64,000 bases of DNA. Origin: Bacillota bacterium. GTDB taxonomy: Bacteria > Bacillota > SHA-98 > UBA4971. The position numbers and the translations under genes were made by a program. How positions within the stretch are numbered: the first letter of the stretch is position 1; each line of letters begins with the position of its first letter. Below, in pieces: positions 2,468 through 61,423 of this stretch. A model generated the notes under the pieces. That model saw nothing but the letters and a program-made list of their open reading frames with translations, made no database searches and was not told the origin of the DNA. The stretch spans positions 16,096-80,095 of the forward strand of contig DAOSZN010000003.1 in assembly GCA_035593725.1 (NCBI GenBank), read 5' to 3'.

Positions 2468-3643
2468 GTGACAAGATTACCTGAGTACATAGGGGTGTCG
2501 GCGTTTGGAATCAAGATAGGAGTGGTCGTCCCGGGATCCGATATAGTCCGGATGACCTATGACGCGCTGGCCAAGTGTCACGATGACGGCCTTCTGGCAT
2601 CAGGGGATACTGTGTGCATCACAGAGTCAGTAGTGGCAAGGGCACAGGACAATTATGTCACTATCGACGATATCGCTGAAGAAGCGCGCAAGCAATTGAA
2701 AATCGGGCCCTCTGCGAAACTGGGAGTTCTATTCCCAATCTTGAGCCGTAATAGGTTTTGGCTGGTGCTTAAAGGCCTTGCCAAAGCCGTCCCTGAAGGT
2801 GAAGTTATAGTTCAGTTGTCATATCCCACCGACGAAGTTGGTAACCCTATTCTGCGGCAAGATCTCGCAAAGAAGCTGGGAAAAAACGACAGAGATATCA
2901 TAACTTTAGAGGAAGCGGGTACAAATAGGCTCAGGCACCCTATAACTCAAGTTGACTACGTTGATCTTTACACTAATACCATTACCGAGCAAGGGGCAAA
3001 AGCCACCATATATTTCTCCAATGATCCTCTGAGAATTGCTGAAGCCAAGACTGATGCAGTTGTTGTAGCAAATGTCCATAACCGTGAAGAGACAAAGGCT
3101 ATCCTTGCGCCGGTTGTAGATAAGTGCATAACTCTTCAAGACATGTGCAATACACCTCCGGGTGCTTGGTCTGAGTGGGGGCTTCTCGGAAGCAACATGT
3201 CCTCCGGGGACAGGCTGAAACTCGCTCCGCGCAATTCAGATAAAGTGGCTAAAGATGTACAAGCAAAGGTCGCCAAGAACCTGGGAGTAGACATAGAAGT
3301 ATTAATCTTCGGGGACGGGGCTTATCGCGATCCGTCAACCGGAATCTATGAACTGGCTGACCCAAAACCTACCTTCGGCATGACACCGGGTCTCGCAGGC
3401 AGATACCGCGAAGGACTGAAATACAAGTACATCGTTGACGAAATGTGGTACCAAGGCACCGGAATCTCTGACATAGAAAACACGCTGAGAACTAAGGCGA
3501 ATGAACCGATAGACAGGCAAGCGGCCGCCACCGAAGGCACTACTCCCAGAAGAATTGAAGACGTCATTGCAAGCCTGGCTGACCTGGTCAGCGGTTCGGC
3601 AGACGCAGGCACGCCTATAGTGCTTGTAAAAGGAATTGCATGA
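2468..3643 (+). CDS. CofE-like protein of the F420-0:gamma-glutamyl ligase family, long form
   Basis: 391 aa with GTG start. N-terminus GIKIGVVVPGSDI…DGDTVCITESVVARAQD and C-terminus …GTPIVLVKG resemble the CofE/FbiB ligase fold. An inserted middle segment makes it longer than canonical CofE. Confidence 0.45.
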   Translation: MTRLPEYIGVSAFGIKIGVVVPGSDIVRMTYDALAKCHDDGLLASGDTVCITESVVARAQDNYVTIDDIAEEARKQLKIGPSAKLGVLFPILSRNRFWLVLKGLAKAVPEGEVIVQLSYPTDEVGNPILRQDLAKKLGKNDRDIITLEEAGTNRLRHPITQVDYVDLYTNTITEQGAKATIYFSNDPLRIAEAKTDAVVVANVHNREETKAILAPVVDKCITLQDMCNTPPGAWSEWGLLGSNMSSGDRLKLAPRNSDKVAKDVQAKVAKNLGVDIEVLIFGDGAYRDPSTGIYELADPKPTFGMTPGLAGRYREGLKYKYIVDEMWYQGTGISDIENTLRTKANEPIDRQAAATEGTTPRRIEDVIASLADLVSGSADAGTPIVLVKGIA

Positions 3644-3660: not shown

Positions 3661-3696
3661 CTACCAGCCCTCCGGCAAGGGCTGGTTTTTTCTTTC
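3661..3696 (+). terminator. Intrinsic terminator after the CofE-like gene
   Basis: CCAGCCCT-CCGGCA-AGGGCTGG followed by TTTTTTCTTTC. Confidence 0.6.
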
Positions 3697-3830
3697 AAGT
3701 CTGCCCCGAAGCGGTAAGAAAGGATTGAAGGGGCAATGGGGAATCCCCTTGATACCCCATGTGACAGTGTTATGTGGTATAGTTCGCCACAAGGTTGATC
3801 CTCTCTTCGGTATTCCATATGCTTTACATA

Positions 3831-3854
3831 TATACCCTACCATGGTATTGTATA
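3831..3854 (+). promoter_or_regulatory. Putative CsoR operator, inverted repeat ATACC-N7-GGTAT
   Basis: TATACCCTACCATGGTATTGTATA sits about 50 nt upstream of the csoR start. It matches the GC-rich ATACCC…GGGTAT-type dyads bound by CsoR-family repressors. A second partial dyad lies at 3751-3780. Confidence 0.45.
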
Positions 3855-3904: not shown

Positions 3905-4174
3905 GTGTACAAGGAGCGTAACAAGGACGATCTGAAGAAGCGTCTCGCCCGAATTGAGGGGCAGATCAGGGGGATCAATCGGATGATCGATGAAGACAGG
4001 TATTGCATTGACATATTGAACCAAATAGCCGCTGCAAGAGCTGCTCTCAGTAAAGTAGGAATGCTTCTCTTAAAATCGCATATGCGAGGATGTGTGACTT
4101 CCGCGATAAAGGAAGAACGCAGTGAACAAGCTATAGACGAACTCATGGATGTCCTCACGAAATTCGTGCGATAA
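3905..4174 (+). CDS. csoR: CsoR-family copper-sensing transcriptional repressor
   Basis: 89 aa. [26 protein letters not shown]…HMRGC carries the conserved metal ligands Cys…His…Cys. GTG at 3905 is 10 nt after AAAGGAGG. The gene lies directly upstream of copA. Confidence 0.85.
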
Positions 4175-4190
4175 CTCAGAGGGTGTAGTT

Positions 4191-6464
4191 ATGCGCCAGA
4201 ACACTGATAAACACGGAAGAGAGGAGAAAATCAATGAGCTGGGTTACGGTGTGGCATTGGACAAGTTAGAGCTTGTCGTCAGCGGCATGCATTGCGCATC
4301 ATGTGTCCACCGTGTTGAGAAGGCTCTTGAAAACACTCCAGGCGTTACCGGTGCAACCGTAAACCTTGCAACCGGCCGAGCTACAATCACTTATGCCCCC
4401 CATAGCACGTCAATCTCTCAAATAATGCAGACTATAAAGGATGCAGGATATGAAGCAGAAGAAGTAGAGCGGGCCGAAAACCGAAGAAGTGAAAGAGCCA
4501 AGATGGAGAGTAGACGCAAGAAAGAGACGACAAGTCACTTTGCAAGCTTCCTCATCTCTGCCATATTTTCGCTTCCCCTTATATCGCTGATGCTCTCTCA
4601 CTTGTTCGGGATAAATCTCCCAGCCTGGTTGAAGAGCCCGTACTTCCAGTTTGTCATAGCTACGCCTGTCCAGTTCTGCGCAGGAATGCAATTTTACCGA
4701 GGGGCGATCTCTGCGTTACGCGCTGGAACGGCCACTATGGACACACTTATAACCATCGGCACCACTGCAGCCTACGCATTCAGCGTATATCACACCTTCG
4801 TCTCCCCGGGTGATGTATATTACGAGTCATCTGCTGTCATCATCACCCTGGTCCTCTTAGGTCGCTATTTGGAAGCCAGGGCGAAAGGCAAAACAGGGGA
4901 AGCCATCAGAAAACTGATGCAACTTGCCCCTCAAAAGACCCACGTCATTCGAGAGGGAACTGAAATCCAAGTGGACACTGAAGAAGTCGTCCAAGGGGAC
5001 ATTGTCGTAGTAAGACCCGGAGAGCGCATACCTGTCGACGGCATAGTAATCGAAGGCATGTCCATAGTGGATGAATCCATGTTGACAGGTGAGAGCATAC
5101 CGGTGGAAAAAGCGCAAGGCGCTCAAGTTATTGCAGGCACCATCAATAAACACGGCGCTTTCAAGCTCCGGGCGACAAAGGTCGGGCAAGACACGGTTCT
5201 TGCTCAGATAGTTGAGATGGTTCGGGAAGCGCAAGGGTCAAAAGCCCCGATACAGCGTTTAGCTGACCAAGTAGCCGGCTATTTCGTCCCTGCTGTACTC
5301 ATGATAGCACTGGTCACTCTCATTATATGGCTTCTTGTTACAGGAGATCCCGGACAGGCAGTTCTTGCCTTTACCTCAGTCCTCGTAATCGCTTGTCCCT
5401 GCTCTCTCGGCCTTGCCACTCCTACAGCTATCATGGTAGGAACCGGAAGAGGCGCTGAGTCAGGCATTCTGATAAAAGGGGCGGAGCACTTGGAAAGAGC
5501 TCATAAAATAGATACCGTTGTCCTGGACAAAACCGGAACAATCACGAAAGGCGAACCTGCGGTTGTCAGTGTAGTGCTAGTCAATACATCAGACGATAAA
5601 GAAGAGGCAATCCGCGAAATGATAAAGCTTGCAGCCTCAGCCGAGCTTCGTTCAGAACACCCGCTGGGAACAGCCATTATCAAACATGCCGAAACCCTCG
5701 GGTTGAAACTGACTGAACCCTCAGGTTTTCAAGCGATTCCCGGAAAAGGAGTGAAAGCCGAGGTGGAAGGCAAAGAAGTGCTGGTAGGCACTTACCGCCT
5801 AATGACTGATCAAGGAATAGACGAAGGGACAGTTGAAAGCAACCTGAGAATCCTTGAATCTCAAGGAAGAACTGCTATGATTGTTGCAGTGGACAGAAGA
5901 ATAGCAGGCATTATCGGTGTCGCAGACACTCTGAAGGAGACGTCGGGGAACGCCGTTATTGCACTGAAAGAACTTGGAATCGATGTTGTGATGCTAACCG
6001 GCGATAATCAGCGTACAGCCAATTTCATCGCAAACCTGGCAGGAATTGAAAAGGTTTTGGCAGAAGTTCTCCCGGAAGATAAAGCAAAGGAAATAGAGAG
6101 GCTCCGCAGCGAAGGAAGGGTAGTCGCCATGGTGGGAGACGGAATCAACGACGCCCCTGCCCTTGCTGCAGCAGACGTAGGCATCGCTATGGGCACAGGA
6201 ACTGACATCGCTATAGAAGCCTCTGATATCACCTTGGTTCGAGACGATCTCAGCCTTATTGCAGCTGCAATAAGGCTCAGCCGTCGCACTATGGCTATTA
6301 TCCGCCAAAATCTGTTTTGGGCGTTCATCTACAATATCATCGGAATACCTATAGCAGCCTTGGGCTTCTTATCCCCGGTTATTGCAGGCGCAGCCATGTC
6401 CTTTTCGTCAGTGTCCGTGGTTACGAATTCACTGAGACTACGCAATTTTAATCCAATGAGATAA
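4191..6464 (+). CDS. copA: Copper-translocating P1B-type ATPase
   Basis: N-terminal HMA domain [15 protein letters not shown], transmembrane CPC motif [11 protein letters not shown], phosphorylation site DKTGTIT, and [11 protein letters not shown] at 4191 with an AGAGGG RBS. The ORF-track start at 4149 overlaps csoR. Confidence 0.9.
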
Positions 6465-6499
6465 GCTGAGACAGAATAAGCGCAGGCGGAGGCATTATT

Positions 6500-7633
6500 G
6501 TGGTTTACTTGGCATGCAGTTACATACCGTATGAAATACCGCTGGCAGCAGGAATGTCTGCCGCAAGAGGCATATTTGAAGGACCCCTCTCAGCAATGGA
6601 GGGATATCTTCCGCGGGATTTCTGTCCTTACGCCAGAGCATTTATACGACAATACGGGGATAATGACGTGGTCGCCGTTGCTGAATCTTGCGATGCAATG
6701 CGCAGGGTCTACGACGTGTTGAAATATTGGAATCTTGCCAGATGTGCCTATTTTGTGGATGTCCCGCGCACCTATGACCCGGAGGCGGTTTCGTTTTATG
6801 CTGAAGAACTGAGAGGCTTTGCTTCCAAGCTTCTGGACTCGGTGCCCTTGCCCTGTGACTCATTCCCAGAAAGACTTGAGTTAGCCATAAAAGGCATGAA
6901 CAGGATTCGCAGGGAACTGTCAGGTGTCTTTGATTTGGTATCAGAAAGGCAGCTTTTAGCTACTAAAGCAACTCAACTTGCCATCAGTATCAATCAGCTC
7001 CTGGCTTGCTTTCCGTCTTTGCCGGATCCCTCTGACTCCGGGTTCAGCCCCAAGCACAGTTCAGCCTCTGGCATGTTTGATAATCTCATCGAGGAAATTA
7101 AAGAGCTGATAAATCAGGCGCTGTCTGAGCCTGCTCACCTCCGCCAAAGAAGAAGCGGAATTCCTGTTGGAGTCAGCGGAACCTGTTTGTTGGATTTATC
7201 ACTCATAGAGTGTATTGAAAATGCCGGTCTCGACGTGGTCTTTATTGATTCATGTCTGCCTTCAAGGACATACGCTTTTTATGTCGATAATGAGACCACC
7301 TCTGACCCCTTTTACGCGCTTGCTGAAGCCTACCTCCGTAAAATGCCCTGTCCACGAATGTTTCGGGGGAAAGAGCGGATTAGGCGCCTCCACGAACTTG
7401 CATCAGATTACGATGCTCAAGGGCTCATTTATTTTGCTCCCAAGTTTTGCGACCAAGCATACTACGATTTCATAGAGATAAAACACGGTCTTAAGTCACT
7501 GGGCAGTCTTCCTGTTCTTTTCCTTGAAGGTCAATACGGAGTGGGTAGGGCAGGACAGACTCTGACAAGAATAGCAGCGTTTCGGGAAATGCTTGAAGGC
7601 ACACAAATCCTGAAAGCAGGTAAGCAACAATGA
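6500..7633 (+). CDS. 2-hydroxyacyl-CoA dehydratase / benzoyl-CoA reductase family subunit (HgdB/BcrB/BadE-like)
   Basis: 377 aa. The N-terminus MVYLACSYIPYEIPLAAGM is typical of this family. GTG start is 8 nt after GGAGG. Its stop overlaps the start of the next subunit. Confidence 0.65.
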   Translation: MVYLACSYIPYEIPLAAGMSAARGIFEGPLSAMEGYLPRDFCPYARAFIRQYGDNDVVAVAESCDAMRRVYDVLKYWNLARCAYFVDVPRTYDPEAVSFYAEELRGFASKLLDSVPLPCDSFPERLELAIKGMNRIRRELSGVFDLVSERQLLATKATQLAISINQLLACFPSLPDPSDSGFSPKHSSASGMFDNLIEEIKELINQALSEPAHLRQRRSGIPVGVSGTCLLDLSLIECIENAGLDVVFIDSCLPSRTYAFYVDNETTSDPFYALAEAYLRKMPCPRMFRGKERIRRLHELASDYDAQGLIYFAPKFCDQAYYDFIEIKHGLKSLGSLPVLFLEGQYGVGRAGQTLTRIAAFREMLEGTQILKAGKQQ

Positions 7634-8943
7634 CGCCGGGAGGAATCAAGACAAGAAAATCACATGGGGAAATAGCCGGAGAGACCCGACGCATCAGGAT
7701 TATCCAGGCCCTTTCACGAAAAAACTGGGTCCATAACGTGGCTGAACTGGTGATTAATCGTATGGAAAGGCAAGGATGGAAGCCCTATCAGATTGATGCA
7801 ATCCGGTGTTTTGCAGACGACTTCCGTCATGGGTACCTCAAAGAGAAGCCTTGTATCTTCACCAGCGCGTTTGTCCCGAATGAACTCATCTACGGCCTGG
7901 GAGGGGTGCCTTTCCTCCCTGAGGCTGCTTCCGGATTCGCTGCAAGTTTCGGATTTGCCTTAGAAAGTCTCACAGCATGTGAATCCCTTTGGTATTCACC
8001 GGATCTTTGCAGTTTTCACAGGGCCGGGGTAGGAGCTTCAGTTCTTAAGCTTGCTCCAAAGCCTGCTGCTGTAGTCGTATCGTCCCAGCTTTGCGACGGA
8101 GGTAAGCGATCTTTATTTCAGATAAGTCAGTATCACGATTGCCCTTTCTACATACTGGATGTGCCTTATACACATTCTGCTTTGGCACTGGACAGGTTGG
8201 CAAAACAGATAGAGGAAGCTGCCATAGGATTGGAGCGTGACGTGCCGGACTTGTCCAGAGGACATATAGATAAAGCTTTCGCGAACTCAAATGTTGCCCG
8301 CAATTGCTATCTTGATCTATGTAAGCTACGGACAAACACGCCGTCGCCATGGCGCGGTTCAGAAGCGTTGAACTATGTGGTACTGTTTCTCTGGGCTTGG
8401 GGAAGTCCATGGCTTGCCAAGTTTTATCAATCTCTTCGAGACCACGCCGAAGACATAATAAAATCAGGGGATTATCCCGTTCCCAATGAGCAATTCAGGC
8501 TCGCTTGGCTCAACTTAAGGCCGTACTACAGTCCAAAACTGTTTAACTACCTCGAAGATACGCATCAAGTCTCTGTCGCTTTTGAAGAATTCAGCTATAT
8601 GTACTGGGACCCGCTGGATGCCGGTGACCCGTACATGAGTCTGGCCAAGAAGATCATGGCAAATCCCGGATGGGGGCCGATAGAGCGTCGGCTTGACGTA
8701 ATCGACAAAATAGTCCGGGAGTTCTCTATCGACGGCGTAGTGCAGTTCGCCCAATGGGGATGCAGGCAATATAACGGCGCTGCCTCTATACTTTCAGATT
8801 ATCTAAGAAAAAAAGGAGTCCCTTTCCTGAATCTCGACGGGGACGGAGTGGATGTCAGGAACAGCGGCGAGGCGCAGTCTATAACCAGGCTTGGGGCTTT
8901 CCAGGAGCTTCTGGAGTCGCAAAAGATCAAAAACTCGAGGTGA
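7630..8943 (+). CDS. 2-hydroxyacyl-CoA dehydratase family subunit (HgdA/BcrC/BadD-like)
   Basis: 437 aa, translationally coupled by an ATGA overlap. Cys-containing motifs are consistent with the D-component of atypical dehydratases. Confidence 0.6.
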   Translation: MTPGGIKTRKSHGEIAGETRRIRIIQALSRKNWVHNVAELVINRMERQGWKPYQIDAIRCFADDFRHGYLKEKPCIFTSAFVPNELIYGLGGVPFLPEAASGFAASFGFALESLTACESLWYSPDLCSFHRAGVGASVLKLAPKPAAVVVSSQLCDGGKRSLFQISQYHDCPFYILDVPYTHSALALDRLAKQIEEAAIGLERDVPDLSRGHIDKAFANSNVARNCYLDLCKLRTNTPSPWRGSEALNYVVLFLWAWGSPWLAKFYQSLRDHAEDIIKSGDYPVPNEQFRLAWLNLRPYYSPKLFNYLEDTHQVSVAFEEFSYMYWDPLDAGDPYMSLAKKIMANPGWGPIERRLDVIDKIVREFSIDGVVQFAQWGCRQYNGAASILSDYLRKKGVPFLNLDGDGVDVRNSGEAQSITRLGAFQELLESQKIKNSR

Positions 8944-8952
8944 GATAGGAGA

Positions 8953-9765
8953 TTGAGAGCTGACTCATATGTAGTTGGAATTGACGTAGGGTCCTCTGCA
9001 ACCAAGGGAGTCCTCCTTCTGGACGGACAACTCGTGTCAACTTTCATGCTTCCCACAGGAACGGATCTAAATGCCACAGCCGGAGAATGCATAGAGCATC
9101 TGCTTCAAAGCGAAGGATTGACTGAAAAGGACCTTATGTACATAGTGTCAACAGGTTATGGGCGGGCCCAAGTCGAAGCTGCTGACAGAACAATCACGGA
9201 AATCACGTGTCACGGCAGAGGAGCGAAGGCCTTAGCCCCCCGGGCCGGACTTGTGATAGATATCGGAGGCCAAGACTCAAAAGTCATTCGCCTTGATGAA
9301 GACGGGATGGTAGCGGATTTCGTGATGAACGACAAATGCGCTGCAGGAACAGGAAGGTTCCTTGAGGTAATGGCAGACCGATTAGAAACGTCTCTCATGG
9401 ACTTCGGGCGTATGTGGAGAGCAGCGAAGAAACCGGCACAGATATCAAGCACTTGTACAGTATTCGCTGAATCCGAGGTAATCAGTCTTTTGTCCGGAGG
9501 CATGGCGCCTTGTGCAATAATCCGCGGCTTGTGCGATGCAGTAGCCGACCGGCTGCTTGGGATGGTTCACAGAGTGGGACTCGCACCTGATGTCGTTATG
9601 ACCGGCGGGGTCAGCAAGAATGCAGGCGTTAGGCTTTCTCTCGAGAAGAAGCTGGCACTTAAGGTGACAGTGCCTGACCTGTCACAGTTCGCAGGGGCAT
9701 ACGGTGGAGCAATAATCGGATATGAACTGGCGAGGCGGGAGTATGCGCAGGGCGGCTTGCGGTAG
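8953..9765 (+). CDS. CoA-substrate-specific enzyme activase (BadF/BadG/BcrA/BcrD/HgdC ATPase family)
   Basis: 270 aa. VVGIDVGSSATKGVLL is an ASKHA-fold phosphate-1 motif, followed by DIGGQDSKVI…NDKCAAGTGRFLE. TTG start is 7 nt after AGGAG. Confidence 0.8.
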   Translation: MRADSYVVGIDVGSSATKGVLLLDGQLVSTFMLPTGTDLNATAGECIEHLLQSEGLTEKDLMYIVSTGYGRAQVEAADRTITEITCHGRGAKALAPRAGLVIDIGGQDSKVIRLDEDGMVADFVMNDKCAAGTGRFLEVMADRLETSLMDFGRMWRAAKKPAQISSTCTVFAESEVISLLSGGMAPCAIIRGLCDAVADRLLGMVHRVGLAPDVVMTGGVSKNAGVRLSLEKKLALKVTVPDLSQFAGAYGGAIIGYELARREYAQGGLR

Positions 9766-9825
9766 GAAACCGGCAGTAAGCGCTCAAGGAACAAAAGATG
9801 AAGCCGGAAAACCGGGGCATGAAAA

Positions 9826-9858
9826 CGCTCTGCTTCATTTGGACGAAGCAGAGCGTCC
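9826..9858. terminator. Bidirectional hairpin between convergent genes
   Basis: GCTCTGCTTC-ATTTGGAC-GAAGCAGAGC, a perfect 10-bp stem with a weak U tract on each side. Confidence 0.4.
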
Positions 9859-9911
9859 TTCCAATAATACGCCCACACAATATGTGCGTCTTGTCTATAC
9901 CGTCCATAGGC

Positions 9912-11039
9912 CTATTCCGTAAGCATGGCTTCCTTAATAGCTTGTCGCCGAACCTGCCGTCCCTGCCAGGCATGGAGAGCCAGCGCAACAGCGATAATAC
10001 CATAAGCAACAAACACGCGAAAATACTCGCCGATTTGCGGCACTCCGAAGAGCCTCTGTCCTGCCAGGGGTGAGACTACGAAAAGGGTATGGAATAGAAT
10101 AACACCTACTATAGCCTGCCAAATAGTGGCACGCCTGGTTGATGCTCCTCCCACAAGAAGAGCTGCTATGGAAAACATGCCTACCTGTTCATGGCTGTTG
10201 TACGTATTTAGGGTGCCGATGTTCTGCAAGAATATCAGCTGTCCCCAGCCTGCTATAACCGTAGATAGGATCATCGCAATAATCCTGGTCTTATCAACCT
10301 TGATACCCATTACCTCGGCTATATGCATATCCTGGCCCACTGCGCGGAGGTCCTGGCCGATTTTGGTCTTCATCAAAAAGGTGATAAGCACACACATCCC
10401 TGCAGACACCAGCAATGTAACAACAGGGATACGTACCCCTCCTATGACAGGCCTCCAGATCTTGTCGAAGGCCTGAGCCATATTAATGAGGTCAACGGTG
10501 TTTCGGACGCCGATTCCTTGAGGCAACAGCATGGCCGGATCTTTGAGAGGAATTATCGGTCCTACAAGGAAAAGGAAAATCAACTGATAAATCCCGTTGG
10601 CGAAGAAGCCCAATATCATGCTGGTGATCATCTCACGCCCCTTTGCCCGGTTCAGTACGTTCCCTGCAAGCCATCCTGCAATTGCTGCGATAGGCGTAGA
10701 AAGCAAGCAAGCCAACAAGAATCCCCGAACACCAGGGATGCCCCAGTAGGTCACGGCAATTGCAGCAGCCTGTCCTGCCATGGCGCCGATTACTATGCTG
10801 AAATTCAGCCCCATTCCTGCGGTAACCGGGATTAGAAGAGATAACACTAAAAGAGAGTTGCGGGCAAGCCGTGTAACTACCTCATTGAGGAGAAACGTGA
10901 CATTAAGCCCTGCAACCATCGCCATCGTAATAGAGAGCGCAAGGAATAGTATGGGCACGCCATTAGTCAGGATTAAGTGACGCACATCAAAGTTGACGGT
11001 TGGGCGTGATTCAACTGTTTTTCCATGTGTTTGTGTCAT
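9912..11039 (-). CDS. ABC transporter permease, BMP/nucleoside-type, second permease
   Basis: 375-aa polytopic membrane protein, last gene of a four-gene operon on the minus strand. Confidence 0.75.
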   Translation of the reverse strand: MTQTHGKTVESRPTVNFDVRHLILTNGVPILFLALSITMAMVAGLNVTFLLNEVVTRLARNSLLVLSLLIPVTAGMGLNFSIVIGAMAGQAAAIAVTYWGIPGVRGFLLACLLSTPIAAIAGWLAGNVLNRAKGREMITSMILGFFANGIYQLIFLFLVGPIIPLKDPAMLLPQGIGVRNTVDLINMAQAFDKIWRPVIGGVRIPVVTLLVSAGMCVLITFLMKTKIGQDLRAVGQDMHIAEVMGIKVDKTRIIAMILSTVIAGWGQLIFLQNIGTLNTYNSHEQVGMFSIAALLVGGASTRRATIWQAIVGVILFHTLFVVSPLAGQRLFGVPQIGEYFRVFVAYGIIAVALALHAWQGRQVRRQAIKEAMLTE

Positions 11040-11042
11040 TTG

Positions 11043-12083
11043 CTACTGACCTCCCGTCGAACGCGTCAATGCGTAAAGGATCATGCCGTTGGAAATGATT
11101 AACCTGGCTACCTCTGAAATGTCGCCTTGGATCACCCTGCTTGTGACAGGCAAGGCAGTCGTCAATAAGGTCTGGAACAGTACCGTGCCGATGATGACAT
11201 TTGAGATAGTCGCTTTTTGTAAGCTTGCCCCGCCTATCAAGATTGCTGCTACAGCAGGAAATGCCATCATCAAAGGCGCCATGTAAAGCTGGAGAAACCC
11301 ATAACTCTGCGCATACACGATTATGCCTATAGCAGCCAGCACCGTTGACAGGATAACCCCTACCGCCTTCATATGACGTACGTCTATACCTGCAGACCTT
11401 GCGAATACAGGATTCGCTCCTGCAGCCACCATGGCGATACCCAGCTTTGTCTTGTAAAACAAGTAAATAAGCAGACAAAATAACAAGAAGAATCCTAAGA
11501 GCCCTCCTGATATCTTGACCCCGAACAATTTGAATACTGCGAAGTTGTTGAGAACCTTCCCAAAATGGTTCCCCAAGGTCAGGGTAAATCTTAACCCCTT
11601 CCCTCCGATTGCCCATATAAGCTCCGGATTCTTAAACGGCGCCATCAGCCAGAAGATGCACATAACCGCCACTGCGGAGAACCCTACATAAGTTCCCACC
11701 ATCATCTCCTGACCCTTCACGCTTTCCAACAGTAATGCGTAAAGGTATCCTACGACAACCGCTATGGGAACCGCAAATCCAATAGCCGCAAACAAACCGG
11801 GAAAACCTGCAAGCCCTCTTTCCATACTAATGAGCGCACCGACCAAACCGCTTAGCACTCCCAGAGGCAGGCCGAAATTGAGGCCTACTCCGCAACTTAT
11901 AGTCGGAACCATCGCAAGGACAAGTATCCCGTTCATCCCGACTCTGACAAGAGAGTCTGTAATGAGCTGAGGAACTGACATATCGGTAATATATGCTGTA
12001 ATGAATATAACTAAAAGGAATCCGGCGATTATGATCCTGGGAAGTCCTATGTGCACGATAATTTGCTTGAGTTTCTGCGTCAT
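11043..12083 (-). CDS. ABC transporter permease, BMP/nucleoside-type, first permease
   Basis: 346 aa and hydrophobic. It lies between the ATPase gene and the second permease gene. Confidence 0.75.
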   Translation of the reverse strand: MTQKLKQIIVHIGLPRIIIAGFLLVIFITAYITDMSVPQLITDSLVRVGMNGILVLAMVPTISCGVGLNFGLPLGVLSGLVGALISMERGLAGFPGLFAAIGFAVPIAVVVGYLYALLLESVKGQEMMVGTYVGFSAVAVMCIFWLMAPFKNPELIWAIGGKGLRFTLTLGNHFGKVLNNFAVFKLFGVKISGGLLGFFLLFCLLIYLFYKTKLGIAMVAAGANPVFARSAGIDVRHMKAVGVILSTVLAAIGIIVYAQSYGFLQLYMAPLMMAFPAVAAILIGGASLQKATISNVIIGTVLFQTLLTTALPVTSRVIQGDISEVARLIISNGMILYALTRSTGGQ

Positions 12084-12085
12084 GC

Positions 12086-13696
12086 CTAGACCGCCTCCTC
12101 CCTGGCTCTGCCTGCCATCATTAATCCGAACTCGGCGTCAGAAGCATCAGGTGGCAAGATCCCGGCAAGCCTGCCTCGATAAACGATGGCGACTCTGTCG
12201 CATATCTTGCGCAGCTCACCAAGCTCACTGGAAGTCATAATTATAGTCACGTTATGCTCTCTATTGAGGCGCACCAAGAGATCTAAGACAAGTCTCTTAG
12301 CGCCGACGTCAATACCTCGCGTCGGCTCGGAAACAAAAAGAATCTCAGGGTCAAGGGCAAGAGCCTTTGCTACACAAACCTTTTGCTGATTGCCACCGGA
12401 AAGGCTCCGCACAGGTTGAGTCGGACCCAGACATCTGATGTCCAGTTTACGTATCATCTCCTCGGAATAAGTCCTAAGTTCCCTTCTGTCTTCCAGCCTG
12501 AGCCCAGGCAGGAAATGAGGCCGGGGACGCAGAAACTTGTGTTGCGCCTGCATGGCAGTAACCCCGATATTCCTCTCAATAGGCTCATCAAGCAGCAGGC
12601 CGACGCCGCGTCTGTCTTCAGACACAAACGCAAGCCCCTTCAGAAGAACTTGCTCAGGCGAATTGAGCGGGATATTGTCTCCGTTCTTGCTGACCCTGCC
12701 TGAAGCCGGGTAAAGGCCCATTATTCCATTTGCAATACCTAACTTTCCATGGCCGGCAAGCCCTCCGATGCCGAGGATTTCGCCACGTCGGACAGACAAG
12801 GATAGGCCACGGACCATCTCGCCTGGCATATCCACTACGAGGTTCTCAATGGTGAAGGCTAAATCCTCATCACTTGGCTCCTTGTCCCGAGCAGGAAGGT
12901 CTACCTTTTCTACCTTCCTTCCCACCATTAACTCAGCGATTCTCTCAACAACAGCTTCATCCCTATTTAATCTTGCTACAATCTCGCCGTCACGAAGCAC
13001 TGTAATCCTGTCCGCTATAGCCATGACTTCATCTAAGCGGTGTGTGATGAAAAGAATCGCAATACCATCTGCAGCAAGCCTACGCAGCGAACCCAAGAGA
13101 CGATCAGCTTCAGTTTCAGTTAAGACAGCGGTAGGTTCGTCAAAGACCAAGATCTTGACTTCCTTCTTATCAACTTCTCTGGCAATCTCAATAAACTGCA
13201 TATATCCTACGGGGAGGCCTGCAACAGGCAGCCATTCGTCAATAGACAGATCGAGACGATCCAAAGCGTGCCTGGCATCCTTTCGCATAGCGGGAATATC
13301 CAGATAGTCTAAGCTTTGGGACCGAAACAGCCTACTGAGAGCATTCTTACGCGTTGTTTCGCGGTTTAACTTAATGTTTTCCGTAATAGTAAATCCCGGT
13401 ATCAACATGAATTCCTGGTGAACCATACCGATCCCCGCTTGCATAGCTTCAGCAGGAGATAGAAGCTCCACCTTTTCTCCGTCAATGAGTATTTCCCCGG
13501 AAAAGCCGCCTGTGCTATGAATTACAGGCATGCCGAAAAGGATATTCATGAGGGTTGACTTTCCTGCGCCATTCTCACCTACAAGCGCATGAATCTCACC
13601 GGGATAAAGGTCTATGGAGACATCGTTTAGGACGGTGTTGCCAAAGTACTGTTTTGTGATGCCCTTCATTTCCAGGACTTGTTGTGCTCGTTCCAT
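12086..13696 (-). CDS. ABC transporter ATP-binding protein with tandem ATPase domains (CUT2 / nucleoside importer type)
   Basis: 536 aa. Walker A GENGAGKST in the first domain and a second nucleotide-binding domain GLAGHGK…LSGGNQQK, as in RbsA/NupA-like ATPases. Confidence 0.9.
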   Translation of the reverse strand: MERAQQVLEMKGITKQYFGNTVLNDVSIDLYPGEIHALVGENGAGKSTLMNILFGMPVIHSTGGFSGEILIDGEKVELLSPAEAMQAGIGMVHQEFMLIPGFTITENIKLNRETTRKNALSRLFRSQSLDYLDIPAMRKDARHALDRLDLSIDEWLPVAGLPVGYMQFIEIAREVDKKEVKILVFDEPTAVLTETEADRLLGSLRRLAADGIAILFITHRLDEVMAIADRITVLRDGEIVARLNRDEAVVERIAELMVGRKVEKVDLPARDKEPSDEDLAFTIENLVVDMPGEMVRGLSLSVRRGEILGIGGLAGHGKLGIANGIMGLYPASGRVSKNGDNIPLNSPEQVLLKGLAFVSEDRRGVGLLLDEPIERNIGVTAMQAQHKFLRPRPHFLPGLRLEDRRELRTYSEEMIRKLDIRCLGPTQPVRSLSGGNQQKVCVAKALALDPEILFVSEPTRGIDVGAKRLVLDLLVRLNREHNVTIIMTSSELGELRKICDRVAIVYRGRLAGILPPDASDAEFGLMMAGRAREEAV

Positions 13697-13813
13697 GTTT
13701 TTGCTCTTCCCTTCTCAAAGTACAAGCTCCACAAAGGAGATAAGAAGAAGCAAGGCGCCGGGTGAGGATTACCCGGCACCCTGAACCTCACTTTACGCAA
13801 TGCGTCTTCTAAA

Positions 13814-14932
13814 TCAGAATTCGTCTTTCCCGAAAATGACGGAACCACTTGTTATCAGATAGAAATTGCCCTTCTTTGGGTCGAGCTTGGAAATCCCCAT
13901 TGGAACACCGGCCGCTGCTTCCAGCCTGGCCTTGACGGCATCTGTGTCGTCAAGCTTCATCTTGCCTTCGATTGTGTCACGGGCTATCTCTACACAAGCC
14001 TCAACAAGAAGGTAGTTGGTTGGAACCGGCCATGTGGCAAACCGTCCTGCTCCGCCCTTCGCCACAATAGCGGTATTGATAGCCTTTAGAATCCCAGGGA
14101 TATTACCCTTCAATTCCTCTGTGATTTCCAGGCCGAGGGCTGCCGGATAGCCATGTGTAGGGCTCGGACAGCACTGCTCAGGGAAGATCGCACCTGTGTT
14201 CAGCGCTGAAATGATAAGGGGCTCCTGCATACCGCAGTTGGTGCTGAACAAAGCAATATCCTTCCCGTGCTTTTCAACCTGCCTCGGGACATCTTCAAGA
14301 ATAAACTGCTGAGCTCCGGGTATGCCGGATTCGCCCATTGGGTCAGGAGCTGTTACAAAAATGAACTCCATCCCAAGCTTCTCACACTCAGCCTTCATGA
14401 TGTCGCGACGCTTTGCCAGAAGCTCCATGGACATGTGCCTTGGGAAAGAATAGTGAAGGAACTTTTTCGCTCCCAGCTGCTTTGCAAGCCTGACAATTGT
14501 CACACCACGCGCTTCCTGATCAGTCTCGAAGGCAAGGTCTGCAGTGGCATTGACTATAGGAGGATCTTCATGAGGGACACCTAGGAGGAAAATAATATCC
14601 GGGCGCAAATCCCGCACTTGCCTGATAGCTGCGACTGTTCCCGGAACTGCTTGGTTGACTATGATTGCTTTAACATCTTTATCTGCAGCAAGACCGGTGA
14701 TTTGTGCTATGGTAGTCTCCTGCTCCTGCATGAAATTGTCAGGATAGGTGACGTGCTTTATCATGTCACCGTACTTCCCCTTCATCTTCTCAGCAGCGCG
14801 GTACTCATCCTCGCCTTGGGAGACTGTTCCTGTTACAAGTCCAATCTTATAGGCAGGGGCTGCGGTCCCGACAACACCTATTGCTCCAACGAGAAACGTC
14901 AAAACCAATACGCAAATCACAAATTTCTTCAT
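13814..14932 (-). CDS. DUF3798-type substrate-binding lipoprotein of the ABC importer
   Basis: 372 aa with signal peptide MKKFVICVLVLTFLVGAIG. It leads an ATPase–permease–permease operon. Its overall composition resembles the DUF3798/BMP-like binding proteins of Firmicutes. Confidence 0.55.
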   Translation of the reverse strand: MKKFVICVLVLTFLVGAIGVVGTAAPAYKIGLVTGTVSQGEDEYRAAEKMKGKYGDMIKHVTYPDNFMQEQETTIAQITGLAADKDVKAIIVNQAVPGTVAAIRQVRDLRPDIIFLLGVPHEDPPIVNATADLAFETDQEARGVTIVRLAKQLGAKKFLHYSFPRHMSMELLAKRRDIMKAECEKLGMEFIFVTAPDPMGESGIPGAQQFILEDVPRQVEKHGKDIALFSTNCGMQEPLIISALNTGAIFPEQCCPSPTHGYPAALGLEITEELKGNIPGILKAINTAIVAKGGAGRFATWPVPTNYLLVEACVEIARDTIEGKMKLDDTDAVKARLEAAAGVPMGISKLDPKKGNFYLITSGSVIFGKDEF

Positions 14933-15239
14933 TGAATCTACTCTCCTTCTTCATTACTTAAGAACTTCGCCTGCTTAAGAAACCACAAGTTTGGAAAACT
15001 CTTCTCTCCGCTCGACTACACTATCGCATTATCACCTCCAAACCTGCTTTTTGAGCCTCATAATCCAGCTATACTCCTACGAATACGAAATGTTAGGTAT
15101 CGTTATTTATTCGATACCGGTTCTTAATACTCCTGCTACAAAGCATCAGATATTTTTGGAGCATAGAAAATGCTCATACAAAGGCCCCTTGTTTTTCTCT
15201 TTGAAATCCGGATGGTTCTACGGCCTGACACCTCAGAGC

Positions 15240-15824
15240 CTAATAAGCACTCCTTGCGCTTTCTTTATAATCTTTTCGTCTTCTGTCTTGCGACACAAAA
15301 CCCTTGAGGAAACATGACACGCGTTTATATACAAGAAACGTGATAACAGAACTTAGTCCGGCTTTGATAGCATTAAAAGCAAAGAGTACAGGAAGCATGG
15401 CTACCACTTGCTCTCTGGAAAACCCGTAAATTAAAGGGACTATTGTCAGATTTACAAGAGGCATTATCAAAGTCTGCGCAACAGTGCCTGCTATGAGGCC
15501 TGCTATAGCCCCACGGAGAGTATGATGACGTCTGTATATAAAGCTTGCAGCCATTACAAGACTGCCTGTGCTTAGGAAATGCATTAACGCCCCGACTGCT
15601 CCGTCAAGACCTGTGATGAAAGCCATCAAAACGGCCATAATGAAAGTTACCGCAAGTCCCGCGCCCGGCCCAAAAGCAAACCCTGCAATCAATACAGGCA
15701 CGTCAGCTGTCTCAAACCGAAGATGTGGAGCTGATGGGAATATCGGCCAGTTGATAAGGGACAAAATCACTGCAATAGACGCAAGTACACCTAATGTTAC
15801 AAGTGTTCTGGTTTTTCTGTTCAT
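15240..15824 (-). CDS. ribU: ECF-type riboflavin transporter S-component
   Basis: About 194 aa with 5-6 transmembrane helices. ATG at 15824 is 12 nt after AAAGGAGG. It lies directly downstream of an FMN riboswitch. Confidence 0.75.
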   Translation of the reverse strand: MNRKTRTLVTLGVLASIAVILSLINWPIFPSAPHLRFETADVPVLIAGFAFGPGAGLAVTFIMAVLMAFITGLDGAVGALMHFLSTGSLVMAASFIYRRHHTLRGAIAGLIAGTVAQTLIMPLVNLTIVPLIYGFSREQVVAMLPVLFAFNAIKAGLSSVITFLVYKRVSCFLKGFVSQDRRRKDYKESARSAY

Positions 15825-15936
15825 CAATGAAGGCAACCTCCTTTATAGATAGCCTTGGTTGCCCGGGCCCCGGCCTCCTATCGTATCCTGCACGCTACTC
15901 CGACATGCTGCTTACCAATGTATCCTGTCTGAGGAG

Positions 15937-16172
15937 AATAACAAAGCCCTGGGCAATAGACCTCAGGGCTCTAATCTCTACAGTGTTCAAAGTGCGACAA
16001 GCGTTTCGCGTTAGCTTGCGACCTTCTCCCATCCGGACTGTACCGTCGGTGCCGGTTTTGCGCCGGCTCAACCGCATTCGCGGCTCGTGGACTTGCCTTT
16101 CGGCATTACCACCGGTCGGGAATTGGCTGGGAACTCCAGCCTCACCCTGCCCCGAAGATCTACATATTGGCT
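15937..16172 (-). ncRNA. FMN riboswitch (RFN element) with terminator-type expression platform
   Basis: The minus-strand RNA reads CUUCGGGGCAGGGUGA…UUCCCGACCGGUGGUA…GCCGACGGUACAGUCCGGAUGGGAGAAGG, matching the RFN consensus. It is followed by hairpin AGCCCUG-N12-CAGGGCU plus UUUGUUAUU at 15937-15971. Confidence 0.85.
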
Positions 16173-16287
16173 ATTTCTTTTGTCTAAATACTATACTATT
16201 ATTTAGCCTAACGCAAGACCCCTGCGTACCTCTTAGGCAACTAACCTAAACAGAAAGCTGCACATTATCGAAAAACCAATTGACAGG

Positions 16288-17358: not shown

Positions 17359-17469
17359 CTATACTATACGCTATACGAAAGGCGACGTCTTTCCATAATA
17401 AGATAGGATACACAAACCCCCTATGACAGACGGAGCCTTCGGAACGAGCCGAAAAGCCCGGCGTATCCC

Positions 17470-27124: not shown

Positions 27125-27329
27125 CAGGGTCGCCCCTGCGACATCTTCTTTTGAAACCTTCACAAAACATTGACTTTATCCCCACAAATTCTTGACAACC
27201 TCTTCGTTAATATATAACAGTGCGACCAAAACGAGGAAACAAACCGGAGAGCCTTTACCGGCAGACTTAAAACCATATTCAGCTCGTGTCAATAGAAGGT
27301 TTTGCGTATTGAAGGAGGGACCATTAGGG

Positions 27330-31524: not shown

Positions 31525-31560
31525 ACTCGAAAAACAGCGTCTGTACGGGGTGACTTAAAC

Positions 31561-61356: not shown

Positions 61357-61423
61357 GAAGCAGGGACTAACGCACACAAAGCGTACGTGCCTGCATCAGT
61401 CCCTGCTTCGTCTCTATTTTTTT
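61357..61423 (+). terminator. Strong rho-independent terminator oriented for the plus strand
   Basis: CGAAGCAGGGACT-N29-AGTCCCTGCTTCG followed by TCTCTATTTTTTT. The T-run overlaps the OMP stop codon on the opposite strand. Confidence 0.55.

What the first reader, a model, noticed from the sequence alone, without database searches (positions are those of the whole stretch)
6500..9765. Orphan 2-hydroxyacyl-CoA dehydratase / benzoyl-CoA-reductase-like radical enzyme trio with no CoA-transferase, ligase or dehydrogenase partner
Two HgdAB/BcrBC-like structural subunits with an ATGA-overlapped junction plus an HgdC/BcrAD-type ATP-dependent activase form a self-contained operon. It lies between a copper-efflux module and an ABC importer. 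No CoA-activating enzyme or pathway context suggests a substrate. Members of this family catalyse ketyl-radical dehydrations and reductions, and stand-alone trios such as E. coli yjiL/yjiM remain functionally undefined.
Basis: partly seen in the sequence, partly recalled or inferred. Interest (0 to 1): 0.5.

Follow-up and report, generated by a model that had tools for sequence, protein, structure and literature searches.

The report
Orphan ATP-driven iron-sulfur radical enzyme trio
Three adjacent genes encode a complete but uncharacterised relative of benzoyl-CoA reductase and 2-hydroxyacyl-CoA dehydratase; its cysteine pattern predicts a rare double-cubane iron-sulfur cluster, its substrate is unknown, and it sits directly behind a copper-export pump.

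Summary
Window 6500-9765 (+) carries a beta-like HGD-D gene (377 aa), an alpha-like HGD-D gene (437 aa, ATGA overlap) and an HgdC-type activase (270 aa). All three match their Pfam families far above cutoff. No CoA-transferase, acyl-CoA ligase, acyl-CoA dehydrogenase or 2-hydroxyacid dehydrogenase was found among the ORFs scanned across the 64 kb.

The trio belongs to a deep, unassigned clade of the BCR/HAD/DCCP superfamily. It is kept as a beta-alpha-activase cassette in about 60 of 80 genome loci, in Bacillota, Actinomycetota, Spirochaetota and others. No metabolic partner gene recurs next to it across clades.

The new point is the cofactor signature. Beta keeps all six cysteines that hold the [8Fe-9S] double cubane in BzdN and DCCP; they are invariant in 68 homologues. 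Alpha keeps the three cysteines of the open-site [4Fe-4S] of BzdO/HadB; they are invariant in 84. HadC and MbdN lack part of the six-Cys set. This is the BzdNO cluster layout, but the BzdO catalytic Glu65 and His131 are absent and there is only one activase gene.

I read it as an ATP-driven low-potential reductase, less likely a dehydratase, of unknown substrate. It is probably co-transcribed with csoR-copA rather than self-contained. Moderately interesting; a new variant of a known kind.

The parts
3823..3851 (+). Promoter-like site (TTTACA-17-TATTGT) containing the palindrome ATACCCTACCATGGTAT (3832-3848), a probable CsoR operator and the probable start of the transcription unit.
   Evidence: Found by the promoter scan and read in the sequence. 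The pattern ATACC-N5-9-GGTAT occurs once in the 64 kb, against 0.11 expected. The same box lies upstream of csoR in L007, L012, L013 and L029. Operator function is inferred.
3905..4174 (+). csoR, a Cu(I)-sensing repressor of the CsoR/RicR type with the C34-H59-C63 fingerprint.
   Evidence: Pfam Trns_repr_metal at 113 bits. Best NCBIfam hit is RicR at 87.7 bits. The Cys-His-Cys residues were read from the translation. Their meaning as a Cu(I) fingerprint is established knowledge of the CsoR family.
4149..6464 (+). copA, a copper-exporting P1B-type ATPase lying immediately upstream of the trio on the same strand.
   Evidence: Pfam HMA, E1-E2_ATPase and Hydrolase. TIGR01511 at 626 bits against a cutoff of 397. 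A P1B ATPase sits 35-69 nt upstream of beta in the window clade (L014's 376 nt is a truncated ORF call, real gap about 40 nt) and 61-66 nt upstream in three Fermentithermobacillaceae loci.
6500..7633 (+). Beta subunit (377 aa), BzdN/DCCP-like, predicted to bind an [8Fe-9S] double cubane through C6, C42, C64, C252, C284 and C317.
   Evidence: HGD-D at 194 bits. The six Cys align one-to-one with BzdN Cys36/73/100/263/293/327 (ligand list from PMC11971306). They are invariant in 68 homologues. The AF2 model has pLDDT 86.9, and its best PDB match is BzdN chain 8s02_B at TM 0.76.
7630..8943 (+). Alpha subunit (437 aa), BzdO/HadB-like catalytic subunit, predicted [4Fe-4S] with an open iron site held by C127, C155 and C378.
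   Evidence: HGD-D at 201 bits. The three Cys align with BzdO Cys95/128/380 and with the aligned HadB Cys. They are invariant in 84 homologues. The AF2 model has pLDDT 91.7 and matches BzdO at TM 0.79 and HadB at TM 0.79-0.86. ATGA overlap with beta.
8953..9765 (+). Activase (archerase, 270 aa), an HgdC-type ASKHA ATPase with bridging-cluster cysteines C129 and C168. It is the only such gene in the locus.
   Evidence: BcrAD_BadFG at 203 bits and TIGR00241 at 268 bits. It scores 225 bits to MbdQ, 223 to HgdC (1hux), 219 to HadI and 152 to DCCP-R. C129 and C168 align with HgdC Cys127 and Cys166. The identity of the HgdC ligands is established knowledge.
9825..9856 (.). 12-bp GC-rich hairpin between the convergent activase and ABC-permease genes, the likely 3' boundary of the unit.
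   Evidence: RNA fold of 9760-9880 gives -37.5 kcal/mol, z = -3.3. A T-run follows the hairpin only on the minus strand, so it is a canonical terminator for the ABC operon. Bidirectional use is inferred.

Best explanation
The locus encodes a complete three-component member of the ATP-dependent Fe-S radical enzyme superfamily, which includes class I benzoyl-CoA reductases, 2-hydroxyacyl-CoA dehydratases and double-cubane cluster proteins. It belongs to a deep clade with no characterised member.

Proposed mechanism. Each step is inferred from homology; none is shown here.
1. A homodimer of the single activase holds one [4Fe-4S] cluster between the subunits (C129, C168) and takes an electron from reduced ferredoxin or flavodoxin.
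2. ATP hydrolysis drives that electron to a very low potential and into the beta subunit.
3. The six invariant cysteines of beta hold an [8Fe-9S] double cubane that can store two or more electrons, as in BzdN.
4. Electrons pass to the [4Fe-4S] of alpha. It has only three Cys ligands, so one iron is free to bind water or the substrate carbonyl.
5. The substrate, most likely a thioester or another activated carbonyl compound, is reduced through a ketyl or neutral radical.

Because an electron-storing double cubane is present, I favour a net two-electron reductase with stoichiometric ATP use over a redox-neutral dehydratase.

The substrate is unknown. It is not benzoyl-CoA, because the BzdO proton and hydrogen donors Glu65 and His131 are replaced by Val93 and Gly158.

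In this genome the trio is probably transcribed from the CsoR-controlled csoR-copA promoter.
For: **Family and completeness:**

**Six-Cys beta.** The cysteines map exactly onto the BzdN [8Fe-9S] ligands and the aligned DCCP cysteines (ligands from PMC11971306, PMC7317905). They are invariant in 68 of 68 beta homologues, one with a gap at the first two positions. Counterparts of BzdN Arg53, Arg267 and Arg290, which surround the distal sub-cluster, are kept as R23, R256 and K281.

**Contrast with other betas.** HadC lacks the fourth Cys; MbdN lacks the fourth and fifth.

**Three-Cys alpha.** Invariant in 84 homologues, one with a gap at C378.

**Folds.**
- Beta matches BzdN best, then DCCP, then HadC.
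- Alpha matches BzdO and HadB about equally.
- Profile searches give the same order.

**Activase.** The cluster cysteines are kept.

**Cassette conservation.** The beta-alpha-activase order is kept across phyla, with tight coupling: ATGA overlap and a 9-nt gap here, and overlaps or short gaps in many relatives.

**Thioester hint.** NRPS and PKS proteins carry an alpha-like HGD-D domain directly after the carrier-protein domain, at 130-175 bits to alpha.

**Transcription unit:**
Against: - No biochemical data exist for any member of this clade, and no paper in the searched library links it to a function.
- Cysteine conservation predicts cluster type but does not prove it.
- The clade is about equally distant from BzdNO, HadBC and DCCP. 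Profile scores are 135.6, 135.1 and 123.6 bits for alpha, and 144.9, 114.7 and 142.6 for beta. Homology therefore does not decide between reductase and dehydratase.
- A dehydratase could simply have retained the ancestral double cubane.
- Class I BCRs use two different ATPase subunits, while this locus has one gene, as HADs and DCCPs do.
- No ferredoxin gene lies in the locus.
- Co-transcription with copA is inferred only from spacing and the lack of a terminator. An internal promoter inside copA cannot be excluded; one weak match lies at 5854-5881.
Confidence: 0.55

Rival explanations
1. It is an ordinary 2-hydroxyacyl-CoA dehydratase used in amino-acid fermentation. The CoA-transferase and 2-hydroxyacid dehydrogenase would be encoded elsewhere in the genome, and the activase would only prime the enzyme with one electron.
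For: - Pfam names both subunits HGD-D.
- A single HgdC-like activase scores 223 bits to HgdC.
- Alpha is as close to HadB as to BzdO: TM 0.79-0.86 and 135 bits by profile.
- The window carries amino-acid catabolic genes: hutH, a PatB-family C-S lyase (aminotransferase fold) and a 2-oxoacid:ferredoxin oxidoreductase.
Against: - Beta has the complete six-Cys double-cubane set, which the HadC beta subunit lacks. The BzdNO paper describes HAD betas as having lost the double cubane (PMC11971306).
- HadB and HadC equivalog scores are 51 of 750 and 33 of 700.
- No CoA-transferase or D-2-hydroxyacid dehydrogenase is found in the 64 kb window.
- None appears next to the cassette in the nine distinct neighbourhoods with Pfam labels, and no partner gene cluster recurs across the 80 genome loci.
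- Carriers include acetogens (Moorella) and a saccharolytic halophile (Halothermothrix orenii). Neither is known for the 2-hydroxyacid route; this last point is my own knowledge.
Confidence: 0.15
2. It is a small-molecule or stress-related reductase in the manner of DCCP, linked to copper stress. CsoR would induce it together with CopA to reduce or detoxify something that accumulates when Cu(I) rises.
For: - A P1B ATPase lies directly upstream on the same strand: 35-69 nt in 8 loci of the window clade and 61-66 nt in 3 Fermentithermobacillaceae loci with about 50% alpha identity. These intergenic regions have no terminator. It lies 4-4.6 kb upstream in 6 loci of a third subclade.
- A conserved CsoR box lies upstream of csoR.
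- The best NCBIfam model for both subunits is double_cubane.
- A preprint links homodimeric DCCPs to a metal-efflux and organometallic locus (10.1101/2022.07.06.499078).
Against: - All loci with a neighbouring CopA fall in one monophyletic group with at least 49% alpha identity, so the linkage may be a single inherited synteny.
- In one subclade, opposite-strand leu genes separate CopA from the trio.
- Most clades (Halanaerobiales, Moorellales, Actinomycetota, Spirochaetota) have no CopA nearby, and no CsoR box precedes the trio there.
- Alpha has the large N-terminal helical region and fold of the CoA-ester-binding catalytic subunits, not the DCCP homodimer design.
Confidence: 0.15
3. It is a class I benzoyl-CoA-type reductase that dearomatises an aromatic or heteroaromatic acyl-CoA.
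For: - BzdN and BzdO are the best single-sequence PDB hits, at 70.6 and 70 bits.
- The cluster layout is the same as in BzdNO.
Against: - BzdO Glu65 and His131 are replaced by Val93 and Gly158. Val93 is nearly invariant across the clade (residue roles from PMC11971306).
- TIGR03190 and TIGR03191 score 58 and 61 bits against cutoffs of 454 and 449.
- There is only one ATPase gene.
- No aromatic acid CoA ligase, dienoyl-CoA hydratase or ferredoxin is in the window, and none appears as a recurring neighbour cluster in relatives.
Confidence: 0.05
4. It acts on a non-CoA ester such as a membrane lipid, like the anaerobic plasmalogen synthase PlsA/PlsR, which also belongs to the BCR/HAD family and needs no CoA partner.
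For: - PlsA/PlsR shows that this superfamily can reduce lipid esters (PMC12838417, PMC9702350).
- The trio lies among housekeeping genes in many lineages.
- In Moorella (L091) it is near UbiA, a radical-SAM/SPASM protein, patatin and an acyltransferase.
Against: - PlsA has the architecture Act1-Act2-Red1, with PlsR as Red2 (PMC12838417). The trio is beta, alpha and one stand-alone activase.
- The long proteins I first took for PlsAR turned out to be NRPS and PKS proteins.
- Lipid genes do not recur next to the trio.
- No PlsA sequence was available for a direct comparison.
Confidence: 0.07

Closest known systems
BzdNO(PQ), the Bzd-type class I benzoyl-CoA reductase (PDB 8s02; PMC11971306)
   Same: - Heterodimer of a shorter subunit with six Cys for an [8Fe-9S] double cubane and a longer catalytic subunit with three Cys for an open-site [4Fe-4S].
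- Best single-sequence PDB hits for both subunits.
- Best fold match for beta, and tied best for alpha.
- Electrons supplied by an ATP-dependent ASKHA ATPase.
   Different: - Only about 22% identity; equivalog scores of about 60 bits against cutoffs of about 450.
- Catalytic Glu65 and His131 are absent.
- One ATPase gene instead of BzdP plus BzdQ.
- No ferredoxin or benzoyl-CoA pathway genes.
- Found in strict anaerobes, next to housekeeping or copper-efflux genes.
HadBC/HadI and HgdAB/HgdC, the 2-hydroxyacyl-CoA dehydratases (PDB 3o3m, 1hux)
   Same: - Gene set of two HGD-D subunits plus one homodimeric activase.
- Alpha fold and its three-Cys site match HadB (TM 0.79-0.86).
- The activase scores 219-223 bits to HadI and HgdC and keeps both cluster cysteines.
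   Different: - Beta has the full six-Cys double-cubane motif, whereas HadC lacks the fourth position (and apparently the first, which lies outside the aligned region) and carries a [4Fe-5S] site.
- No CoA-transferase or 2-hydroxyacid dehydrogenase nearby.
- Equivalog scores of 51 of 750 and 33 of 700.
DCCP/DCCP-R double-cubane cluster protein (PDB 6eno, 7yyl; NCBIfam NF040772), including E. coli YjiM/YjiL
   Same: - Six-Cys [8Fe-9S] motif in beta.
- A single ATPase partner.
- No known physiological substrate.
- NF040772 is the best NCBIfam hit for both subunits.
   Different: - DCCP is a homodimer of one 7-Cys protein, in which the double cubane itself is the active site.
- Here two diverged subunits exist, and alpha has kept only three Cys.
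- The seventh DCCP Cys is absent.
- Scores of 124 and 72 bits against a cutoff of 350.
PlsA/PlsR, the anaerobic plasmalogen synthase
   Same: A BCR/HAD-family enzyme that works without any CoA-activating partner. It is a precedent for non-CoA substrates.
   Different: It has a fused Act1-Act2-Red1 protein plus Red2.

Membership tests
BCR/HAD/DCCP superfamily (HGD-D subunits plus BcrAD_BadFG ATPase) | Two-domain HGD-D fold subunit or subunits, and an ASKHA ATPase with two cluster-bridging Cys per monomer. | tested here: met
   PF06050 at 194 and 201 bits; PF01869 at 203 bits; TIGR00241 at 268 bits against a cutoff of 125. Only superfamily members appear as significant fold matches. Activase C129 and C168 align with HgdC Cys127 and Cys166.
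2-hydroxyacyl-CoA dehydratase (HadBC/HgdAB type) | Beta subunit with a single [4Fe-4S](-SH) site, that is, without the six-Cys double-cubane set. | tested here: not met
   Window beta has all six Cys. HadC aligned to the family profile has Leu at the fourth position, and its alignment starts after the first position. HAD cluster types are taken from PMC11971306 and PMC7317905.
2-hydroxyacyl-CoA dehydratase (HadBC/HgdAB type) | Sequence reaches a curated equivalog model (HadB NF052455, HadC NF052456). | tested here: not met
   50.8 bits against 750, and 33.1 against 700. All 22 family alphas are also far below cutoff.
2-hydroxyacyl-CoA dehydratase (HadBC/HgdAB type) | Pathway context: a CoA-transferase and an (R)-2-hydroxyacid dehydrogenase in the locus or genome. 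| tested here: inconclusive
   Absent from the 64 kb window. None appears next to relatives: not in the nine distinct Pfam-labelled neighbourhoods, and not as a recurring cluster across the 80 genome loci. The rest of the genome could not be searched.
2-hydroxyacyl-CoA dehydratase (HadBC/HgdAB type) | A single homodimeric activase gene. | tested here: met
   One BcrAD_BadFG gene in the locus, scoring 223 bits to HgdC.
Class I benzoyl-CoA reductase, Bzd type | BzdN-like subunit with six [8Fe-9S] Cys, and BzdO-like subunit with three Cys. | tested here: met
   One-to-one alignment with BzdN Cys36/73/100/263/293/327 and BzdO Cys95/128/380.
Class I benzoyl-CoA reductase, Bzd type | Catalytic Glu65 and His131 of BzdO, which act in hydrogen-atom and proton delivery to the ring. 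| tested here: not met
   They align with Val93 and Gly158. Val93 is nearly invariant across the clade.
Class I benzoyl-CoA reductase, Bzd type | Two distinct ATPase subunits (BzdP/Q), and equivalog-level similarity (TIGR03190/03191/03192). | tested here: not met
   One ATPase gene. Scores of 58, 61 and 196 bits against cutoffs of 454, 449 and 380.
Double-cubane cluster protein (DCCP, NF040772) | Homodimer of one protein with the 7-Cys motif, and a score at or above 350 bits. | tested here: not met
   Two different subunits. Alpha has only three of the Cys. No Cys lies between C6 and C42 where the seventh would sit. Scores of 124 and 72 bits.
Double-cubane cluster protein (DCCP, NF040772) | Actual presence of an [8Fe-9S] cluster. 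| not testable with these tools
   Predicted only from the six invariant Cys and the conserved basic residues R23, R256 and K281. It needs metal analysis or a structure.
PlsA/PlsR plasmalogen synthase | Act1-Act2-Red1 fusion plus Red2. | tested here: not met
   The architecture here is beta, alpha and one stand-alone activase. PlsA architecture is from PMC12838417. Sequence-level comparison was not tested because no PlsA sequence was available.

The most novel reading that the evidence does not exclude
The trio represents a second, non-aromatic class of heterodimeric enzymes that pair an [8Fe-9S] double cubane with an open-site [4Fe-4S] cluster. Until now this pairing is known only from BzdNO. 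The class would be widespread as a stand-alone cassette in strict anaerobes and would carry out an unknown ATP-driven reduction that needs no dedicated CoA-activation pathway. In one Bacillota lineage it would have been recruited into the CsoR/CopA copper-stress operon.
Probability: 0.3. Interest if true: 0.7.

Novelty: new variant of a known kind. Interest (0 to 1): 0.45.

Why it matters
The [8Fe-9S] double cubane has so far been solved only in DCCP, whose physiological role is unknown, and in BzdN, where it stores electrons for the Birch-type reduction of benzoyl-CoA.

A conserved and compact three-gene cassette with the same cluster layout but a different active site would show that this layout is a general module for very low-potential reductions. 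The cassette is present in cultured organisms (Halothermothrix orenii, Moorella and Neomoorella species, Thermanaeromonas). That gives workable material for finding a new substrate class.

The tight link to copA in one lineage is also a concrete, cheap hypothesis to test, by asking whether copper induces the trio.

If the enzyme proves to be just another acyl-CoA dehydratase, the finding is routine.

Tried and rejected
1. **PlsA/PlsR or Ger lipid ester reductase.** The exhaustive search returned 1500-2000 aa proteins matching alpha at 130-175 bits, and I suspected fused PlsAR. Pfam showed they are NRPS (C-A-T) and PKS modules ending in an HGD-D domain. The idea lost its support.
2. **A recurring thioesterase partner.** The 4HBT gene next to the trio in Ca. 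Fermentithermobacillus (L009) has no tblastn match in any other locus except L023, the same genome.
3. **A CsoR operator in front of the trio in genomes without CopA.** None was found. The one good palindrome, in L031, lies inside a ComEC-like coding region.
4. **Literature link between this family and copper, or any work on YjiL/YjiM function.** Nothing relevant was found. One paper merely lists an HGD-like system in a conserved Thermoanaerobacterales neighbourhood (PMC8760340).
5. **Histidine to glutamate to 2-hydroxyglutarate pathway**, suggested by the nearby hutH. Rejected: hutH is convergent, it is conserved only in the window clade, and no gctAB, hgdH or gcd genes are present.
6. **Technical dead ends.**
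   - The 22-sequence alpha alignment was too diverse for the locus scan, so a 12-sequence subset was used instead.
   - My simple ORF caller mis-calls some genes: the 4HBT gene in L009 and a truncated CopA in L014. Neighbour clusters are therefore indicative, not exhaustive.

Full report
**1. What is there**

Window 6500-9765 (+) holds three tightly packed ORFs.
- A 377-aa protein starts at GTG 6500, with a GGAGG 8 nt upstream.
- A 437-aa protein starts at ATG 7630. Its start overlaps the upstream stop as ATGA.
- A 270-aa protein starts at TTG 8953, 9 nt after the stop of the second gene.

The first two match Pfam HGD-D at 194 and 201 bits. The third matches BcrAD_BadFG at 203 bits and TIGR00241, the acyl-CoA dehydratase activase model, at 268 bits.

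Upstream on the same strand lie a CofE/F420-ligase-like gene, csoR and a copper P1B ATPase. Downstream and convergent lie an ABC importer with a DUF3798 binding protein, an ECF S-component, a histidine-racemase-like gene and a bona fide hutH.

Among the window ORFs I scanned (most of those of 140 aa or more), none is a CoA-transferase, AMP-forming ligase, acyl-CoA dehydrogenase or D-2-hydroxyacid dehydrogenase.

**2. Where it sits in the superfamily**

Every curated equivalog model is missed by a wide margin.

| Subunit | Model | Score (bits) | Cutoff (bits) |
|---|---|---|---|
| beta | double_cubane | 124 | 350 |
| beta | BzdN | 58 | 454 |
| beta | HadC | 33 | 700 |
| beta | BcrC | 26 | 421 |
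| alpha | double_cubane | 72 | 350 |
| alpha | BzdO | 61 | 449 |
| alpha | HadB | 51 | 750 |

The same holds for 22 diverse alpha homologues.

Against solved structures, single sequences hit BzdN/BzdO at about 70 bits, DCCP at about 42 and HadBC at 29-38. Family profiles give near-ties.

| Profile | Closest chains (bits) |
|---|---|
| alpha | BzdO 135.6, HadB 135.1, DCCP 123.6 |
| beta | BzdN 144.9, DCCP 142.6, HadC 114.7, MbdN 52.7 |

The AF2 models are confident, at pLDDT 91.7 and 86.9, and give the same picture. Alpha matches BzdO and HadB about equally (TM about 0.79), then DCCP. Beta matches BzdN best (TM 0.76), then DCCP, HadC and MbdN.

The trio is therefore a deep, separate branch. It is not a member of any characterised subfamily.

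**3. Cofactor signature, the main new result**

The 2025 BzdNO structure paper (PMC11971306) lists the [8Fe-9S] ligands of BzdN as Cys36/73/100/263/293/327. It lists the ligands of the catalytic [4Fe-4S]-OH2 of BzdO as Cys95/128/380.

In the HMMER alignments, window beta C6/C42/C64/C252/C284/C317 fall exactly on the six BzdN ligands and on the aligned DCCP cysteines. Alpha C127/C155/C378 fall on the three BzdO ligands and the aligned HadB cysteines.

From the 80 loci of a species-representative genome scan, plus four metagenome and genome loci fetched earlier, I extracted 68 beta and 84 alpha sequences. All six beta cysteines and all three alpha cysteines are invariant, apart from single gaps, while every other Cys varies.

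Basic residues around the distal sub-cluster of BzdN (Arg53, Arg267, Arg290) are kept as R23, R256 and K281.

By contrast, HadC has Leu at the fourth Cys position, and MbdN lacks the fourth and fifth.

The predicted layout is a double cubane in beta and an open-site cubane in alpha. [quoted passage not shown]

The BzdO residues that deliver hydrogen and protons to the aromatic ring are not conserved. Glu65 aligns with Val93, which is nearly invariant in the clade, and His131 aligns with Gly158. There is also only one ATPase gene, as in HADs and DCCP. That ATPase carries the two cluster cysteines of HgdC, here C129 and C168.

**4. Distribution and context**

An identical alpha protein is on record on at least 23 contigs. 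The sources shown are ENA, JGI and Logan assemblies and an NCBI record; NCBI names the protein's source a Bacillota bacterium MAG.

The exhaustive representative search finds 165 clusters at E <= 1e-30 and 1324 at E <= 1e-3.

The beta-alpha-activase order is kept in about 60 of 80 genome loci. These include Bacillota MAGs, Fermentithermobacillaceae, Halanaerobiales (including Halothermothrix orenii), Moorella/Neomoorella and Thermanaeromonas, Desulfotomaculales, Actinomycetota, Spirochaetota and Armatimonadota. Some members are beta-alpha or alpha-activase fusions.

All-against-all clustering of neighbouring ORFs shows no metabolic partner that recurs across clades. Neighbours are housekeeping genes, such as ribosomal proteins, NAD salvage, MscS, LDH/MDH-like genes, leu genes and ABC-2 transporters. 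They are shared only within subclades.

The orphan status therefore applies to the whole family, not only to this genome.

**5. The copper neighbour**

The one neighbour that recurs beyond a single subclade is a P1B ATPase lying directly upstream on the same strand.
- In 8 loci of the window clade (70-86% alpha identity) the gap is 35-69 nt. L014 printed 376 nt because my ORF caller truncated CopA; the real gap is about 40 nt.
- In 3 Fermentithermobacillaceae loci (about 50% identity) the gap is 61-66 nt. There a TrmB-like regulator, not CsoR, precedes the ATPase.
- In 6 loci of a third subclade it lies 4-4.6 kb upstream, with leu genes inserted on the opposite strand.

None of the short intergenic regions folds into a terminator.

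In the window, a strong terminator follows the upstream gene at 3663-3686. A promoter-like site at 3823-3851 contains the unique palindrome ATACCCTACCATGGTAT, which is conserved upstream of csoR in four relatives. CsoR has the Cu(I)-type Cys-His-Cys fingerprint. A 12-bp hairpin follows the activase.

I infer a five-gene unit, csoR-copA-beta-alpha-activase. "Self-contained operon" is thus probably wrong for this genome.

All loci with a neighbouring CopA fall in one monophyletic group, so a single ancestral juxtaposition is enough to explain them. A functional link to copper remains a hypothesis.

**6. Mechanism proposed**

By homology, reduced ferredoxin or flavodoxin passes an electron to the [4Fe-4S] of the activase dimer. 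ATP hydrolysis drives it into the beta [8Fe-9S], which stores electrons. From there it reaches the site-differentiated [4Fe-4S] of alpha and then the bound carbonyl or thioester substrate, giving a radical and then the product.

The electron-storing double cubane tips me towards a two-electron reductase (confidence about 0.55) rather than a redox-neutral dehydratase (about 0.15).

A weak hint that relatives of alpha act on phosphopantetheine thioesters comes from NRPS and PKS megasynthases. They end in an alpha-like HGD-D domain directly after the carrier domain. These domains share the three Cys. They differ at R234, L294, E319, W326 and Q380, which were invariant in the 22 trio-family alphas aligned; the comparison itself used four of those alphas. 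Those residues are candidate specificity determinants.

**7. Verdict**

The locus is real, complete and well conserved. It is an uncharacterised branch of a known enzyme kind with a hybrid set of features: BzdNO-type clusters, an HAD/DCCP-type single activase, no CoA pathway, and linkage to copA in one lineage.

It is not categorically new, and no function can yet be assigned. I rate it a new variant of a known kind, with interest of about 0.45.

Noticed in passing
Proteins P0231, P0297, P0302 (about 1510-1530 aa) and P0294 (2004 aa); not in the window: NRPS (Condensation, AMP-binding, PP-binding) and PKS (KS, KR, ACP) megasynthases end in an HGD-D domain placed directly after the carrier-protein domain. 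These domains score 130-175 bits to the window alpha and keep its three cluster cysteines. I know of no described role for a radical dehydratase- or reductase-type domain fused to assembly lines.
   Followed up: partly
window 9912-18984 (- strand): This is a histidine uptake and catabolism block. It holds an ABC importer with a DUF3798 binding protein, an ECF S-component, a CntK/HisR-like histidine-racemase-like protein (92 bits, below cutoff) and a bona fide histidine ammonia-lyase hutH (706 bits against a cutoff of 539). It is conserved next to the trio only in the window clade, and it is convergent to the trio.
   Followed up: partly
window 27192-33530 and 61422-63863: Two OEP (TolC-like) proteins, a HlyD adaptor, a MacB-type ABC pump, a LolA_like protein and a DUF1302-like protein occur in a genome that NCBI labels Bacillota. 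This suggests an outer-membrane-bearing (diderm) Bacillota lineage.
   Followed up: no
window 2468-3643 (+): A CofE/F420-0:gamma-glutamyl ligase-like protein of 391 aa has a large insertion: the Pfam match spans residues 14-389 on a 218-position profile. It is conserved upstream of csoR in the window clade and is separated from csoR by a strong terminator at 3663-3686.
   Followed up: no
L010 (H. orenii) 5179-6567; L049; L058; L091 11488-12864: A radical-SAM/SPASM protein of about 460 aa lies next to or near the trio in Halanaerobiales, Desulfallas, one Bacillota MAG and Moorella. This is a possible second recurring neighbour. In H. orenii an 88-aa ORF precedes it.
   Followed up: no
L039-L041, L043, L046, L048, L075: In one subclade (about 38-40% alpha identity) no activase is adjacent. 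Instead an L-LDH/MDH-family dehydrogenase of about 345 aa lies just downstream of the alpha gene: immediately adjacent in L039, L040 and L046, one to three ORFs away in the others.
   Followed up: no
PDB 9g87_B (MbdN) compared with 8s02_B (BzdN): MbdN, the 3-methylbenzoyl-CoA reductase subunit, lacks two of the six double-cubane cysteines that BzdN has. The [8Fe-9S] cluster is therefore not universal even among class I BCRs.
   Followed up: partly
L014 6297-6674: The CopA gene of this relative looks truncated or frameshifted in my ORF call. The 376-nt gap still reads as CopA C-terminal sequence, so the real copA-to-beta gap there is about 40 nt.
   Followed up: partly
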